A stretch of 64,000 nucleotides of DNA from Aestuariivirga sp. (lineage in GTDB: Bacteria > Pseudomonadota > Alphaproteobacteria > Rhizobiales > Aestuariivirgaceae): NCBI RefSeq assembly GCF_037139295.1, contig NZ_JBAXGR010000008.1, forward strand, positions 6,890-70,889, read 5' to 3'. The notes under the pieces were generated by a model that was not told the origin of the DNA, did not search any database, and saw only the letters and a program-made list of their open reading frames with translations. Shown piece by piece: positions 56,332 through 64,000 of this stretch. The first letter of the stretch is position 1; every line of letters begins with the position of its first letter. The position numbers were made by a program, and so were the translations under genes.

Positions 56332-59918
<3,587 letters not shown>

Positions 59919-59926
59919 GTTTCCGC

Positions 59927-59941
59927 TTAAGCCCTCGTTAG
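59927..59941. promoter_or_regulatory. CtrA-like binding site upstream of the repeat-protein gene
   Basis: TTAA-gccctcg-TTAG, one mismatch to TTAA-N7-TTAA. Confidence 0.45.
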
Positions 59942-60138
59942 GATTCCGTCGCTAACATCAACACTGCGGAAGGTGAGCTATCATGGCTCCCGGGCATGAT
60001 GCCGCCGCCACCCCCGTCCTGTCCCTGACCATTTGAGCACTGTGCAAGTCTCGCGCAGGGTTGCGGCGGCAATGTCTTCCATGCGGATCGTGAGGTTGAT
60101 TGGGGGTGCGAGCAGCTCCACCCAGCGGGAGCCCATCT

Positions 60139-63000
60139 ATGTCGATCGTTTCGTCGCTGACCACAAGGCAGATCGCCACCCTGAGCACCACGGCCATCAG
60201 GGCCCTGTCGACGACCGATGTGGCAGCACTCAGCACAACGCAGGTCTCGGCCCTCACTGCCTCGCAGATCAATGCGATGGAGACAACCGACCTCACCACG
60301 CTCGACACCAACCAGGTGCAGGCGATCTCCACCACCGCCATCAAGTCGCTGATCGCAGCGAGCATCACCAATCTCGCCGACACGCAGGCAGCGGCACTCA
60401 CCACCGGGCAGATCGGCCTCCTGCAGGCCTATGCGGTGGAAGCGCTTGAATCGACCGATGTCCAGGCATGGAACACCACGCAGCTGGGTGCCATCACCTC
60501 GCGTCAGCTGGCAGGCCTCACCACCACGGCGCTCGCCGACTTCTCAGATACGCAGCTGGGTCAGCTCACCTCCACCCAGGTGCGTGGCCTAACGACGAGC
60601 CAGCTCAACATCCTCGCCACCACCCAGCTCAACGCGCTCAACATCGCCGATCTCTCCGCCACCCAGGTTCGCGGCATGACATCGACAGCGGTCGATGCGC
60701 TGTCGACCACCCAGGCGCAGGCACTCACCGTCTCGCAGATCGCGGTTCTCTCCGCCCCGGGTGTTGAAGCCTTGAGCTCGACCGAAATCCAGGGCTGGTC
60801 CACCACGCAGCTCGGAGCCCTCACCTCGCAGCAACTGGGTGGGCTCACGACCACGGCACTCGCCGACTTCTCCGACACGCAGCTTGGCCAGATGACTTCG
60901 ACGCAGTTGCGCGGCCTGACCACGCTGCAACTCAACAACCTTGCCACGACCCAGCTCAACGCCATCGACGTCACAGCACTGTCGGCCACGCAGATCCGCG
61001 GCATGAGCTCCACCGCCATAGACGCGCTGACGGACACCCAGGCGCAGGCGCTGACCACCGCGCAGATCGCGGCCATGTCGGTCACCGGCATGGATGCGCT
61101 GACCTCCACCGACGTCCAGGGCTGGAGCACCACCCAGCTTGGCGCCATCACCTCGCAGCAGCTGGCGGGCCTCACCACCACCGCACTCGCCGACTTCTCG
61201 GATACCCAGCTCGGCCAGCTGAGCGCCACCCAGGTGAAGGGTCTCACCTCCACCCAGCTTAACGGCCTTGCCAGCACGCAGCTGAACGCGCTGAACGTCA
61301 CGGATCTCTCTGTGTCACAGATCCGCAACATGAGCTCCACGGCGATCGGCACGCTGTCCAGCACACAGGCCCAGGCCCTTGGTTCGCTGCAGATCGGGGT
61401 GCTCAGCGCCGGCGGCCTCGAGGCGCTCGCTTCGACCGATATACAGGCATGGTCGACGACGCAGCTTGGCGCCATCACATCCCAGCAGATGGCTGGCCTG
61501 ACAACCACTGGCATCGCTGATTTCTCGGACACGCAGCTGGGCCAGTTGACCTCCGCCCAGATCCGCGGCCTCACCTCGACCCAAATCAACAATCTCGGCA
61601 CCACCCAGCTCAACGCGTTGGACGTCGCCAGCCTCTCCGCCGCGCAGGTGACCGGCTTCACGACAACCGCCATCGGCAGCCTCACCTCCACTCAGGCGCA
61701 GGGCTTCACCGTCACGCAGATCGCCGCGCTGACGGCCACCGGTCTGGGCGGCGTCGCCAGCACCGATCTGCAGGCCTGGAGCACGACCCAGCTCGGCGCC
61801 ATCACCACGCGCCAGATGTCGCAGCTCACCACCACGGCACTTGCCAATTTCTCGGATACGCAGCTGGGTCAGCTGACCTCGACCCAGGTCCGTGGCCTCA
61901 CCTCAACCCAAATCAACAATCTCGGCACAACCCAGCTGAACGCGCTGAACGTTGCCGACCTGTCGACGGCGCAGGTCCGGGCGATGAACTCGACGGCGAT
62001 TGATGCGCTGACCACTACCCAGGCTCAGTCGCTCACCACCGCACAGATCGCCGTGCTCTCTGCCACCGGCCTCTCGGCGCTCAGCTCCACAGAACTGCAG
62101 GGCTGGTCGACAACGCAGCTTGGCGCGATCACCTCGCAGCAGTTCGTCGGCATCGCAGCCACGGAAGTCGAGGACTTCTCGACCACCCAGCTGTCGAGCC
62201 TCACCTCCACCCAGCTCCGCGGCCTCAGCGCAACCCAGCTGAGCGGCCTGTCCAGCACCTATCTGCAGGCGCTCGACGTTGCCTCTCTCTCCACACAGCA
62301 GGTGGCGGGCCTCGATACCACGGCGGCGGGCAACCTCTCCAGCACACAGGTGCAGTCGCTGTCGGCTGCACAGATCGGCGCCGTGACGGCGGGCTCGCTC
62401 TCCGCCTTCGGCTCGACCGATATCCAGGCCTGGAACACCACGCAGCTCGGCGCCGTGACGGCGACCCAGCTCGGGGGCCTGACCACGACCGAGATCACCG
62501 ACTTCTCGGATACGCAGCTGGGCCAGCTTGCGTCCACGCAGCTCCGTGGGTTCACCTCGACCCAGCTCAATGCGCTTGATACCGCACAGTTGACGGTGCT
62601 CACTGCGTCGTCCCTCTCGACGGCGCAGATCGGCGGCCTCACCTCGACGGCCCTCGACCGCTTCACCACCACGCAGATCGGCTCGCTCGATGCCAGCCAG
62701 TTCCGCGCCATCACGCCCGCCGCGCTGGACAGCCTCGACACCGCGATTTTCTCGGGCCTGAACGCCACGCAGGCGGGCGCCCTGACATCTGCCCAGGTCG
62801 CGGTCCTCAGCACCACCAACTTCGCGTCGCTGAACGAGACCACCGGCATCCCGTCGCTCGCCGTCTCGGCCATCGCCGGCATCACCACGGACCAGATCGC
62901 GGCACTGTCCAGCACCCAGGCCAATGCCTTCACCACCTCGCAGATCGGGCTGATGAGCTCCGACCAGCTCACCGCCCTCATCATCGCCTCCAACGCATAA
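60139..63000 (+). CDS. Ser/Thr-rich octapeptide-repeat protein (953 aa), uncharacterized
   Basis: GGGAG RBS then ATG at 60139; GC3-rich codon use; repeats of L-[S/T]-x-x-Q-[ILV]-x-x; no signal peptide; no Cys or His seen. Confidence 0.9.
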   Translation: MSIVSSLTTRQIATLSTTAIRALSTTDVAALSTTQVSALTASQINAMETTDLTTLDTNQVQAISTTAIKSLIAASITNLADTQAAALTTGQIGLLQAYAVEALESTDVQAWNTTQLGAITSRQLAGLTTTALADFSDTQLGQLTSTQVRGLTTSQLNILATTQLNALNIADLSATQVRGMTSTAVDALSTTQAQALTVSQIAVLSAPGVEALSSTEIQGWSTTQLGALTSQQLGGLTTTALADFSDTQLGQMTSTQLRGLTTLQLNNLATTQLNAIDVTALSATQIRGMSSTAIDALTDTQAQALTTAQIAAMSVTGMDALTSTDVQGWSTTQLGAITSQQLAGLTTTALADFSDTQLGQLSATQVKGLTSTQLNGLASTQLNALNVTDLSVSQIRNMSSTAIGTLSSTQAQALGSLQIGVLSAGGLEALASTDIQAWSTTQLGAITSQQMAGLTTTGIADFSDTQLGQLTSAQIRGLTSTQINNLGTTQLNALDVASLSAAQVTGFTTTAIGSLTSTQAQGFTVTQIAALTATGLGGVASTDLQAWSTTQLGAITTRQMSQLTTTALANFSDTQLGQLTSTQVRGLTSTQINNLGTTQLNALNVADLSTAQVRAMNSTAIDALTTTQAQSLTTAQIAVLSATGLSALSSTELQGWSTTQLGAITSQQFVGIAATEVEDFSTTQLSSLTSTQLRGLSATQLSGLSSTYLQALDVASLSTQQVAGLDTTAAGNLSSTQVQSLSAAQIGAVTAGSLSAFGSTDIQAWNTTQLGAVTATQLGGLTTTEITDFSDTQLGQLASTQLRGFTSTQLNALDTAQLTVLTASSLSTAQIGGLTSTALDRFTTTQIGSLDASQFRAITPAALDSLDTAIFSGLNATQAGALTSAQVAVLSTTNFASLNETTGIPSLAVSAIAGITTDQIAALSSTQANAFTTSQIGLMSSDQLTALIIASNA
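60469..62757 (+). repeat. Seven tandem 327-nt (109-aa) intragenic super-repeats
   Basis: Trp codons at 60469, 60796, 61123, 61450, 61777, 62104, 62431 (exact 327-nt spacing); each unit = 13 octads + one 5-mer. Confidence 0.95.
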
Positions 63001-63018
63001 GCCGGAGATCAACGCGCC

Positions 63019-64000
63019 TTGTCATCCTCCATCGCCACACTGTTCCGTGACGCTGACATCATCGAAAAGACCGAAGGAGCACTGGCGGCCGCCGAGCTCT
63101 ACAAGCGCTGGGTTGCCCTCAATCCGGACGACCAAAACCTTGCGGCGGCACATTTCAACATGGCGGTGGTGGCCCAGCGCGGCGGAGATGCCTATGCCGC
63201 CATCAATGCGCTGCGCGATGCGCTGAGGATAGATCCGGGCTTCCACCCCTCCTACATCAACCTCGGCCGCGCGCTGGAGGACATTGGTCAGACGGGCGAT
63301 GCGGTGAGCCAGTGGCTTGCCCTCGTGAACCGGCTTCCTGCGGTCAATGGCACAACGCTGCGCCACAAGGTGATGGCGCTGCACCAGCTGGGCCGCGTGC
63401 TCGAATTCAACCATGCCGATGCGCCCGCTGAGGATGCCCTGCGCCAGGCGATCGATCTCTCGCCTAGCCAGGCTCAGGCCATCCAGCACTGGATCGCGCT
63501 GCGCCAGAGGCAGTGCAAGTGGCCGGTGGTGCAAGGCTGGGATGGGGTGGAGGCACGGCAGCTTCTCGCCCACATCTCGCCGCTCTCCACCGCCGTGATG
63601 TTTGACGATCCGGTGTTCCAGCTGGCTCGCAATGCCGCCTATGCGCGCCAGTCAATCGCCCGGCCACCCCATGTGCATGACCATTCTGCACGGCCGTCGG
63701 AGCGTCCAGCGCGTCTCAAGATCGGCTACGTCTCCTCCGACCTGCGCGAGCATGCCGTGGGCTTCGGGCTCTGCGAGGTGATGGAGCTCCATGACCGCAG
63801 CCGCTTCGAGGTCCACGCCTATTACTGCGGCATCCCGCGCGAGGACGGCACGCGTGAGCGCATCCGCTCCGCAGTTGATCACTGGACGGATATTTCCAGC
63901 CTGTCGGACGATGCCGCTGCGGCGCGCATCGCAGCCGATGGCATCGATATCCTGGTTGATGTGAACGGCTACACGCGCGATGCCCGCACCGCTGTCTTCG
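63019..64000 (+). CDS. TPR + GT41 glycosyltransferase (OGT/SPINDLY-like), truncated by the window end
   Basis: Translated manually (not in the ORF track). GGAG RBS, TTG start; TPR-like helices (AAAHFNMAVVAQRGGDAYAAINALRDALRIDP; SYINLGRALEDIGQ); LKIGYVSSDLREHAVG; LHDRSRFEVHAY; DGIDILVDVNGYT. Confidence 0.88.
   Translation, partial: MSSSIATLFRDADIIEKTEGALAAAELYKRWVALNPDDQNLAAAHFNMAVVAQRGGDAYAAINALRDALRIDPGFHPSYINLGRALEDIGQTGDAVSQWLALVNRLPAVNGTTLRHKVMALHQLGRVLEFNHADAPAEDALRQAIDLSPSQAQAIQHWIALRQRQCKWPVVQGWDGVEARQLLAHISPLSTAVMFDDPVFQLARNAAYARQSIARPPHVHDHSARPSERPARLKIGYVSSDLREHAVGFGLCEVMELHDRSRFEVHAYYCGIPREDGTRERIRSAVDHWTDISSLSDDAAAARIAADGIDILVDVNGYTRDARTAVF

What the first reader, a model, noticed from the sequence alone, without database searches (positions are those of the whole stretch)
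60139..63000. Two-level repeat architecture: 8-aa octads within an invariant 109-aa (13x8+5) super-repeat
Seen: 6 aa + 13 octads, then seven units each starting W-[NS]-T-T-Q-L-G-A, with F-S-[DT]-T-Q-L at octad 4 and one 5-residue 'stutter' (LNIAD, IDVTA, LNVTD, LDVAS...), then a 10-segment cap. Length is conserved to the nucleotide although synonymous sites have diverged. Established: phi-S/T-x-x-Q/E-phi is a helix N-capping box with hydrophobic staple. Inference: a rigid short-helix superhelix whose single Trp and stutter set a 109-aa pitch, presenting regular Thr/Ser stripes as a glycan scaffold or molecular ruler. An ice- or mineral-binding surface is a more speculative alternative, since it is not the AGYGST ice-nucleation repeat.
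Basis: partly seen in the sequence, partly recalled or inferred. Interest (0 to 1): 0.65.

Follow-up and report, generated by a model that had tools for sequence, protein, structure and literature searches.

The report
ALTTAQ-repeat rod with exact 109-residue blocks
This gene encodes a 953-residue protein made only of 8-residue threonine-rich mini-helices (the catalogued but unstudied Pfam "ALTTAQ" repeat) arranged in exact 109-residue blocks; it is always inherited with an O-GlcNAc-transferase-like enzyme, so it is most likely a sugar-coated rod whose length changes only in whole blocks.

Summary
Window 60139-63000 (+) encodes a 953-aa protein laid out as 110 aa (6 + 13 octads), six 109-aa units (7 octads, a 5-residue stutter, 6 octads, each headed by the only Trp) and a 189-aa tail. 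In 19 orthologues read here, from Aestuariivirga and unclassified MAGs, every Trp-Trp spacing is exactly 109. Lengths are 844, 953, 1280 or 1607 aa, that is 299 + 109n with n = 5, 6, 9, 12. Twelve species align without a gap although dS is 0.6-1.1.

The octad is not new: it is Pfam PF20080 "ALTTAQ repeat" (374 bits), a family with no paper in the library. AlphaFold2 predicts an unbroken array of 5-6-residue capped helices (pLDDT 91-92). The only solved relative is the designed "alpha-helical screw" HeliScrew4 (PDB 9ZEM, E = 3e-7, in register).

A TPR-GT41 (OGT-type) gene starts 19 nt downstream. It co-occurs with and abuts the repeat gene in 23 of 23 carrier species of the genus (Fisher p = 1e-26), and also in other Alpha- and Betaproteobacteria. 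A UDP-xylose synthase is often a third partner.

Best reading: a glycosylated, probably exported helical-screw rod. The "ruler" role, and any role of the Trp and stutter in setting a pitch, remain untested.

The parts
60127..60131 (+). Shine-Dalgarno-like GGGAG, 7 nt before the ATG
   Evidence: Read directly. All orthologues start at the same MSIV... residue.
60139..63000 (+). CDS of the 953-aa ALTTAQ-repeat protein (stop at 62998-63000)
   Evidence: Pfam PF20080 E = 1.4e-114, 31 stretches. dN/dS against orthologues is 0.12-0.25.
60139..60468 (+). N-terminal 110 aa: MSIVSS plus 13 octads, with no Trp and no stutter
   Evidence: The same 110-aa length occurs in all 19 orthologues read.
60469..60795 (+). 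109-aa unit 0 (aa 111-219; stutter LNIAD at aa 167-171)
   Evidence: In the model the stutter is a 3-residue mini-helix.
60796..61122 (+). 109-aa unit 1 (aa 220-328; stutter IDVTA)
61123..61449 (+). 109-aa unit 2 (aa 329-437; stutter LNVTD)
61450..61776 (+). 109-aa unit 3 (aa 438-546; stutter LDVAS)
61777..62103 (+). 109-aa unit 4 (aa 547-655; stutter LNVAD)
62104..62430 (+). 109-aa unit 5 (aa 656-764), a divergent unit with the motif S.YLQALDVA..QQVAGL
   Evidence: Only 45-59% identical to the other units of this gene. It is the best match of the penultimate unit in the n = 5 and n = 9 proteins, but not in the n = 12 protein.
62431..62997 (+). C-terminal 189 aa: a seventh Trp-headed half unit with stutter LTASS, further octads, one 9-residue irregular segment, and a 12-residue terminal helix (aa 941-952)
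   Evidence: The 189-aa length is invariant. A similar tail motif...Q..AM...Q..A[LV]I.A..., occurs in distant GT41-paired relatives.
63019..64000 (+). Start of the TPR + GT41 (OGT-type) glycosyltransferase gene. It is 659 aa and runs 998 nt beyond the window end. TTG start, with GGAG at 63004-63007.
   Evidence: Read from the genome contig. Pfam PF13844 E = 5e-67 plus TPRs. Closest PDB chains are human OGT (6e-83) and XcOGT (5e-76).

Best explanation
The gene encodes a member of the Pfam ALTTAQ-repeat family. Every octad (phi1-[ST]2-[ST]3-[ST]4-Q5-phi6-x-x) forms one very short capped helix, and the helices wind round a hydrophobic core into a long 'alpha-helical screw' rod. Inference: this leaves two of the three Ser/Thr of each octad exposed.

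The array grew by tandem duplication of a 14-helix block (13 octads plus one truncated 5-residue helix, with a single Trp at a core position). The duplications are old. Because any indel would break the register of a continuous solenoid, only whole blocks are gained or lost, which gives the lengths 299 + 109n.

The protein forms a two-gene unit with a cytoplasmic TPR-GT41 (OGT-type) enzyme, which most likely O-glycosylates its Ser/Thr. A UDP-xylose synthase is a frequent third partner, so the glycan may contain xylose.

The protein has no signal peptide. It is probably exported, most plausibly by type I secretion, and would serve as a glycan-coated surface fibre or spacer.

Shown here: the repeat anatomy, family membership, purifying selection, length quantisation and the gene linkage. 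Predicted: the fold. Inferred: glycosylation, export and role.
For: Anatomy: exact 109-aa Trp spacing in this protein and in 19 orthologues of 844, 953, 1280 or 1607 aa. Twelve species align over 953 columns without a gap at 69-90% identity, with dS 0.57-1.09 and dN/dS 0.12-0.25. Across 95 units Trp1 is kept in 100% and Phe25 in 95%; Gln5 is 98-100% in 9 of the 13 octads; Ser/Thr at octad positions 2-4 is mostly 80-100%.

Family: PF20080 at 373.9 bits against a cut-off of 26.4.

Fold: AlphaFold2 pLDDT 91.0 and 92.4, with helices of 5-6 residues every 8 residues. There is an in-register match to the crystallised HeliScrew4, PDB 9ZEM, E = 3.3e-7. The fold class is described in preprint 10.64898/2025.12.04.691947.

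GT41 link: all 22 loci with a GT41 at least 46% identical carry an ALTTAQ-type ORF next door, in Aestuariivirga, Methylosinus, Sinorhizobium saheli, Rhizomicrobium, an Acetobacteraceae MAG and Variovorax. Among 156 species of the genus, 23 have the repeat gene and 24 the orthologous GT41. All 23 have both, adjacent (Fisher p = 1.2e-26). Two further families of the order have giants of 2466 and 2965 aa with a 50%-identical GT41 directly downstream. The pair sits in two different genomic contexts, so it moves as a unit. His498, Lys842 and the HTT motif of human OGT are conserved.

Xylose: a homologue of human UXS1 (E = 1e-127) follows the GT41 gene in Rhizomicrobium (two loci), the Acetobacteraceae MAG and four Aestuariivirga species. 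It is present in 22 of 23 module genomes against 44 of 133 others.

Export: a HlyB-type type I ABC transporter, followed by a partial ORF not tested further, lies in the Acetobacteraceae locus. Elsewhere ALTTAQ arrays are fused to RTX, serralysin-C, metalloprotease, calpain, Calx-beta and G8 domains.
Against: There is no experimental datum on any ALTTAQ protein or on this GT41. No paper in the library holds 'ALTTAQ'.

AlphaFold2 can be over-confident on idealised repeats, and Foldseek finds no natural structural relative (TM at most 0.32).

In this genome there is no transporter gene beside the pair, and no HlyB with an N-terminal C39-like domain was found, so export is inferred only from relatives.

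OGT-type enzymes bind extended peptides, so glycosylation would have to precede folding. The N-cap Ser/Thr is needed for the fold, so not all Ser/Thr can carry sugar.

Other repeat-only ALTTAQ proteins (P0003, P0006, P0021) have no GT41 neighbour. The co-occurrence statistics ignore phylogenetic non-independence.
Confidence: 0.6

Rival explanations
1. The 109-aa period has no function of its own. It is the footprint of an old block duplication, and its exact conservation follows only from the intolerance of a continuous solenoid to indels. The Trp and the stutter are frozen accidents of the founding block. This is compatible with the glycosylated-rod reading but denies any 'pitch' or 'ruler' role.
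For: Other ALTTAQ proteins show quite different super-periods: 57, 75, 80 and 136 aa, 136 and 249, 192. GT41-paired relatives mostly lack periodic Trp. The 110-aa N-terminal part has neither Trp nor stutter yet is modelled as the same fold. Block number varies (5, 6, 9, 12) with no other visible change.
Against: Trp1 is kept in 95 of 95 units, and the stutter is kept in every unit, despite saturated synonymous divergence between units. A neutral accident would be expected to drift to Leu, as at the equivalent position of the other octads.
Confidence: 0.3
2. The protein stays in the cytoplasm and acts as a scaffold or regulator partner of the GT41 (for example a TPR-binding platform or storage protein), not as an exported fibre.
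For: It has no signal peptide or membrane segment (sequence). GT41 enzymes are cytoplasmic (established knowledge). No transporter gene lies beside the pair in Aestuariivirga.
Against: A type I secretion ABC transporter gene lies in the homologous Acetobacteraceae locus. The family is elsewhere fused to domains typical of secreted proteins. A composition of 30% Ser/Thr, no Cys or His and a net charge of about -33 resembles surface fibres more than cytoplasmic scaffolds.
Confidence: 0.15
3. An ice-binding or mineral-binding protein that uses regular unglycosylated Thr arrays.
For: Very regular Thr arrays. Many carrier genomes are MAGs from water-monitoring and lake-type sample series, judging by their record names. 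Designed helical repeat proteins can bind ice (PMC12685108, listed).
Against: Strict coupling to a protein glycosyltransferase. There is no match to the ice-nucleation repeat or to any ice-binding family. In a screw the Thr stripe would spiral rather than form the flat face that known ice binders use (inference). The module is present in only 15% of species of the genus.
Confidence: 0.04

Closest known systems
Pfam PF20080, ALTTAQ repeat (ALTTAQ_rpt)
   Same: The octad itself. The protein scores 373.9 bits with 31 matched stretches. About 1,250 clusters at 50% identity in 1.84 billion proteins match this protein at E <= 0.001.
   Different: The family has no assigned function and no paper in the library. 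This protein is repeat-only and is paired with a GT41. Its octads are grouped in exact 109-aa blocks with one Trp and one 5-residue stutter, which I saw only in this clade.
Designed alpha-helical screw HeliScrew4 (PDB 9ZEM; preprint 10.64898/2025.12.04.691947)
   Same: [quoted passage not shown] The sequence match is in register at E = 3.3e-7. The predicted secondary structure is the same kind.
   Different: HeliScrew4 is a 120-residue design with Pro and Glu at N1 and N2. Here Thr/Ser fill those positions, the array is 953 aa long, and it carries a periodic stutter. The preprint knew one natural example (7QLR) and asked why nature rarely uses the fold.
OGT-type GT41 enzymes (human OGT; Xanthomonas campestris XcOGT, PDB 2JLB/2VSY)
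   Same: The neighbouring gene has TPRs plus a GT41 catalytic domain, E = 6e-83 and 5e-76, with the catalytic His/Lys/HTT positions conserved.
   Different: Those enzymes are not described with a dedicated, co-inherited repeat-protein partner. From my own knowledge, no natural substrate is established for XcOGT. The donor sugar here is unknown, and UDP-xylose synthase linkage hints at xylose.
HMW1 adhesin with HMW1C (GT41 N-glycosyltransferase), and Gram-positive serine-rich repeat adhesins with GtfA/GtfB
   Same: The same logic: a large repetitive exported protein is glycosylated in the cytoplasm by a dedicated enzyme encoded beside it (established knowledge; PMC3983070 for HMW1C).
   Different: The enzyme here is TPR/OGT-type, not HMW1C-type (NCBIfam NGTferase 29.8 bits against a cut-off of 1000; PDB NGT chains only 1e-7). 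Only one N-x-S/T sequon position recurs in more than 30% of units, at 35%. There is no two-partner secretion or accessory Sec machinery and no signal peptide. The fold is helical, not beta-helix or disordered.
Nebulin-type super-repeats and the ice-nucleation protein InaZ (two-level repeat architectures; own knowledge)
   Same: Short repeats are grouped into an exact higher-order period.
   Different: There is no sequence or fold relation. Nebulin's super-repeat matches a partner filament, and no such partner is known here. InaZ is a beta-solenoid of 16/48-residue repeats.

Membership tests
Pfam PF20080 ALTTAQ repeat | Match to the family HMM above the gathering score | tested here: met
   373.9 bits against a cut-off of 26.4, E = 1.4e-114, 31 stretches. 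Also met by the GT41-paired relatives in S. saheli, Rhizomicrobium and the n = 12 orthologue.
Alpha-helical screw fold (preprint 10.64898/2025.12.04.691947) | Tandem 7-8-residue units, each a short N-capped helix | tested here: met
   By prediction only. DSSP of both AlphaFold2 models shows 5-6-residue helices every 8 residues. Octad position 2 is S/T and sits at the N-cap.
Alpha-helical screw fold (preprint 10.64898/2025.12.04.691947) | Sequence or structure similarity to the solved example | tested here: met
   9ZEM_A HeliScrew4 is the best PDB sequence hit, E = 3.3e-7, aligned in octad register. Foldseek did not list it; that library ends in April 2026.
Alpha-helical screw fold (preprint 10.64898/2025.12.04.691947) | 2.5-4 units per superhelical turn round one axis | not testable with these tools
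   Model coordinates are not readable. Sequence sub-periodicity was inconclusive.
GT41 O-GlcNAc-transferase type (the neighbouring gene) | TPR N-terminus plus GT41 catalytic domain with the catalytic His, Lys and HTT positions | tested here: met
   PF13844 E = 5e-67 plus TPR families. The alignment to human OGT keeps ..SSD..H....NGYT..AR....QK.. and ..HTT..D.
GT41 O-GlcNAc-transferase type (the neighbouring gene) | Transfers GlcNAc from UDP-GlcNAc to Ser/Thr of the repeat protein | not testable with these tools
   Needs biochemistry. The donor may differ, given the UXS linkage.
HMW1C-like N-glycosyltransferase system | NGT-type GT41 without TPRs, with N-x-S/T sequons in the substrate | tested here: not met
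   NCBIfam NGTferase 29.8 bits against a cut-off of 1000. Only one sequon position recurs in more than 30% of units, at 35%.
Leucine-rich repeat | LxxLxLxxN strand-turn units forming a beta-sheet on the concave face | tested here: not met
   The hits are weak and composition-driven (LRR_EndoS 38.8 bits; LGR5 E about 1e-3). Neither model contains a beta-strand.
Ice-nucleation protein (InaZ type) | AGYGSTxT-type 16-residue repeats forming a beta-solenoid | tested here: not met
   No such Pfam match. The motif is different and the prediction is all-helical.
Flagellar type III export substrate | Depends on the flagellar export gate (FlhA) | tested here: not met
   Eight of the 23 module genomes lack FlhA. 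Four of those are 98-100% complete (G041, G137, G165, G170).

The most novel reading that the evidence does not exclude
The 109-aa block acts as a structural vernier. One truncated helix and one core Trp per 14 helices would reset the phase of the helical screw, so that the exposed Thr/Ser (and their sugars) line up over tens of nanometres. The protein would then be a length-quantised, glycan-coated spacer or ruler on the cell surface, extended by whole blocks (by my rough geometric guess 4-5 nm each). The partner GT41 would use UDP-xylose, a donor not known for that enzyme family, which would make this a bacterial protein O-xylosylation system.
Probability: 0.1. Interest if true: 0.8.

Novelty: new variant of a known kind. 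Interest (0 to 1): 0.55.

Why it matters
Three points go beyond one odd gene.

1. Designers recently described the 8-residue alpha-helical screw as almost absent from nature. This family shows natural screws nearly 1,000 residues long and longer, under strong purifying selection. The exact 299 + 109n lengths give a natural series for measuring rod length per block.

2. Natural substrates of bacterial OGT-type GT41 enzymes are poorly known. Here enzyme and candidate substrate are co-inherited without exception, and one carrier, Aestuariivirga litoralis KCTC 52945, is cultured, so the question can be tested directly.

3. The recurrent UDP-xylose synthase points to a possible new donor sugar for GT41 enzymes.

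On its own, the two-level repeat is a lineage-specific variant of a catalogued repeat family.

Tried and rejected
- Foldseek of both models against the PDB gave only generic HEAT/ARM solenoids, mesothelin (TM at most 0.32) and an LRR. There was no usable relative.
- Literature searches for 'ALTTAQ' and 'PF20080' found nothing relevant. A search for bacterial GT41 substrates found no paper on such a pair.
- NCBIfam gave no family for the repeat protein.
- The Pfam hits to DUF4351, LRR_EndoS, CAAP1 and Sigma70_r4_2 are composition artefacts of the repeat. They shift between orthologues.
- The promoter and terminator scan of 59800-63200 found nothing.
- Flagellar export is rejected as a requirement.
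- An HMW1C-type N-glycosylation system is rejected.
- An attempt to infer helices per turn from octad-lag similarity was inconclusive.
- A local tblastn found only generic ABC exporters and no HlyB with a C39-like domain in this genome.
- The three other repeat-only ALTTAQ proteins I checked had no GT41 neighbour, so the pairing is a subfamily trait and not a family rule.
- The long opposite-strand ORFs (for example 60561-61691, minus strand) are shadows of a GC-rich repeat gene. Selection acts on the plus frame.
Full report
**Observation**

The ORF at window 60139-63000 (+) encodes 953 aa. Its ATG is preceded by GGGAG at 60127-60131. The seven Trp residues of the protein lie at aa 111, 220, 329, 438, 547, 656 and 765, exactly 109 apart.

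Each unit is 7 octads, a 5-residue segment and 6 octads. The unit begins W[NS]TTQLGA and has FS[DT]TQL as its fourth octad. The first 110 aa are MSIVSS plus 13 octads. Tandem Repeats Finder reports a 327-nt period with 70% matches.

Units within the gene are 45-77% identical in protein but only about 50% identical at third codon positions (dS 0.6-1.3).

**What the octad is**

Pfam assigns the whole protein to PF20080, the 'ALTTAQ repeat' (373.9 bits against a cut-off of 26.4, 31 stretches). So the first level of the repeat belongs to a catalogued family. That family has no assigned function, and no paper in the library mentions it.

About 1,250 clusters at 50% identity, out of 1.84 billion proteins, match this protein at E <= 0.001. 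In the wider family the arrays are fused to calpain-like and metallo-proteases, RTX, serralysin-C, Calx-beta, G8 and similar domains typical of secreted proteins.

Across 95 units from 15 of the orthologues the octad consensus is phi1-[ST]2-[ST]3-[ST]4-Q5-phi6-x-x. Trp1 is kept in 100% of units and Phe25 in 95%. Gln5 is kept in 98-100% of units in 9 of the 13 octads. Ser/Thr at positions 2-4 is mostly at 80-100%. The protein is 30% Ser+Thr and 11% Gln, has no Cys or His, and carries 51 acidic against 18 basic residues.

**Fold**

AlphaFold2 on residues 88-547 without an alignment gives pLDDT 91.0 and pTM 0.74. The full length with 12 orthologues gives pLDDT 92.4 and pTM 0.51. Both models are an unbroken series of 5-6-residue helices, one per octad.

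Octad position 1 (including the Trp) and position 2 are in coil, and positions 3-7 or 3-8 are helical. The stutter is a truncated 3-residue helix. The chain ends in a 12-residue helix.

Foldseek finds no natural relative (TM at most 0.32). By sequence, the best PDB chain is 9ZEM 'HeliScrew4' (E = 3.3e-7, aligned in octad register). This is the crystallised design from a 2025 preprint that defines the 'alpha-helical screw'. The preprint reports 2.5-4 eight-residue units per turn and S/T/D/N at the N-cap, and knew of one natural example.

The fold here is a prediction. AlphaFold2 can be over-confident on idealised repeats, and I could not read the coordinates. Units per turn and the geometric effect of the Trp and stutter therefore remain unknown. 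A sequence-based attempt was inconclusive.

**Is the 109-aa period kept?**

Yes, within the clade. The genome belongs to the GTDB genus that holds Aestuariivirga (Hyphomicrobiales; organism names). In 19 orthologues read here, every Trp-Trp spacing is 109, the N-terminal part is 110 aa and the tail is 189 aa. Total lengths are 844, 953, 1280 or 1607 aa, that is 299 + 109n with n = 5, 6, 9, 12.

Twelve 953-aa orthologues at 69-90% identity align without a single gap, with dS 0.57-1.09 and dN/dS 0.12-0.25. Unit k of one species is closest to unit k of another, so the duplications predate these species. Internal units were amplified in the longer proteins, and even the closest paralogous units are at most 84% identical. 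The divergent unit 5 is the best match of the penultimate unit in the n = 5 and n = 9 proteins, but not in the n = 12 protein.

Outside the clade the period is not kept. GT41-paired relatives have 136 aa (S. saheli, Variovorax), 249 aa (Rhizomicrobium) or 192 aa (giants in other families of the order). Other ALTTAQ proteins show 57, 75, 80 or 136 aa. Super-repeats are thus general in the family. The 13x8+5 block with one Trp is a lineage-specific form.

**Context**

Nineteen nucleotides after the stop begins a 659-aa gene that runs past the window end. It has TPRs plus a GT41 domain (PF13844, 5e-67). Its closest PDB chains are human OGT (6e-83) and XcOGT (5e-76). SPINDLY is further (8e-53) and HMW1C-type N-glycosyltransferases are far (1e-7). 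The catalytic His, Lys and HTT positions are conserved.

- All 22 loci in the species-representative genome collection that encode a GT41 at least 46% identical have an ALTTAQ-type ORF next to it. These come from Aestuariivirga, Methylosinus, Sinorhizobium saheli, Rhizomicrobium, an Acetobacteraceae MAG and Variovorax.
- In 156 species of the genus, 23 carry the repeat gene and 24 the orthologous GT41. All 23 carry both, adjacent. The single extra GT41 sits near a contig end (Fisher p = 1.2e-26).
- The pair occurs in two contexts. With n = 5 or 6 it lies directly after gyrB (dnaA-dnaN-recF-gyrB where read). With n = 9 or 12 it lies elsewhere. So it moves as a unit.
- Three other repeat-only ALTTAQ proteins have no GT41 neighbour. 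The pairing therefore marks a subfamily. That subfamily also shares an M[ST]I..S.L...QI N-terminus and a similar C-terminal tail, and it is richer in Ser/Thr (27-35% against a median of 21%).

**Further partners**

A close homologue of human UDP-glucuronate decarboxylase, that is UDP-xylose synthase (E = 1e-127), follows the GT41 gene in two Rhizomicrobium loci, in the Acetobacteraceae MAG and in four Aestuariivirga species of the second context. In this genome it is unlinked, on contig C19. Across the genus it is present in 22 of 23 module genomes against 44 of 133 others (p = 9e-9, not corrected for phylogeny).

The Acetobacteraceae locus also holds a HlyB-type type I secretion ABC transporter, followed by a partial ORF that I did not test. 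The S. saheli locus holds a UDP-galactopyranose mutase.

FlhA is absent from eight of the 23 module genomes, four of them 98-100% complete, so flagellar export is not required.

**Interpretation**

The best-supported reading is a Thr/Ser-coated helical-screw rod that is the dedicated substrate of the co-inherited OGT-type enzyme. It would be glycosylated in the cytoplasm and probably exported, most plausibly by type I secretion. That route is inferred from relatives and from the lack of a signal peptide.

The exact block length is most simply explained by old block duplication plus the intolerance of a continuous solenoid to indels. Length then changes only by whole blocks. Whether the invariant Trp and stutter do more, such as a phase reset or a ruler function, is open.

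Ice or mineral binding has no support beyond composition.

**Earlier notes of this scan**

Earlier notes independently report ALTTAQ-plus-OGT pairs in many phyla and led me to the helical-screw preprint. I re-derived the pairing, the fold prediction and the PDB match here. I treat the notes as leads only.

Noticed in passing
L034:8978-10000, L035:4824-5846, L033:6161-7156, L015:4696-5694; own genome contig C19:47488-48426: A UDP-xylose synthase (human UXS1 homologue, E = 1e-127) is a recurrent third gene after the GT41. It is present in 22 of 23 module genomes against 44 of 133 others in the genus. This hints that xylose is part of the glycan, or that it is the GT41 donor.
   Followed up: partly
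window 56332-63000 and beyond; L014, L015, L045-L048: The two-gene module sits directly after gyrB (dnaA-dnaN-recF-gyrB in L014) in the n = 5 and n = 6 species, but at an unrelated site (next to UXS) in the n = 9 and n = 12 species. It is present in only 23 of 156 species of the genus, so it looks like a mobile accessory module.
   Followed up: partly
L046:4313-9136 (-), the n = 12 orthologue: Unit-end types follow QG QT QG QA QA / QG QA QG QA QA / QG QA, and several closest paralogous units lie 5 units apart. This may be a third repeat level of five units (545 aa).
   Followed up: no
L030:6977-9035: In this long-read MAG the GT41 gene is split into 541-aa and 141-aa ORFs in different frames. 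This is either a frameshift or a sequencing error. A genus survey hit with an open frame of about 542 aa (G147) may be the same genome.
   Followed up: no
L033:799-4544: The Acetobacteraceae locus has two tandem GT41 genes (39% identical over the catalytic part to the window's enzyme), then UXS and a HlyB-type ABC transporter. The repeat gene is divergent from them.
   Followed up: partly
L032:8613-11487: In Sinorhizobium saheli the GT41 is followed by an ORF whose 434-aa core, scanned alone, had no NCBIfam match, and then by a UDP-galactopyranose mutase. The 1704-aa repeat gene is transcribed divergently.
   Followed up: no
window 60561-61691 (-), 61903-63012 (-), 62259-62993 (-): Long opposite-strand ORFs of 244-376 aa overlap the repeat gene. 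They are frame shadows of a GC-rich (GC3 0.86) repeat gene, not genes.
   Followed up: partly
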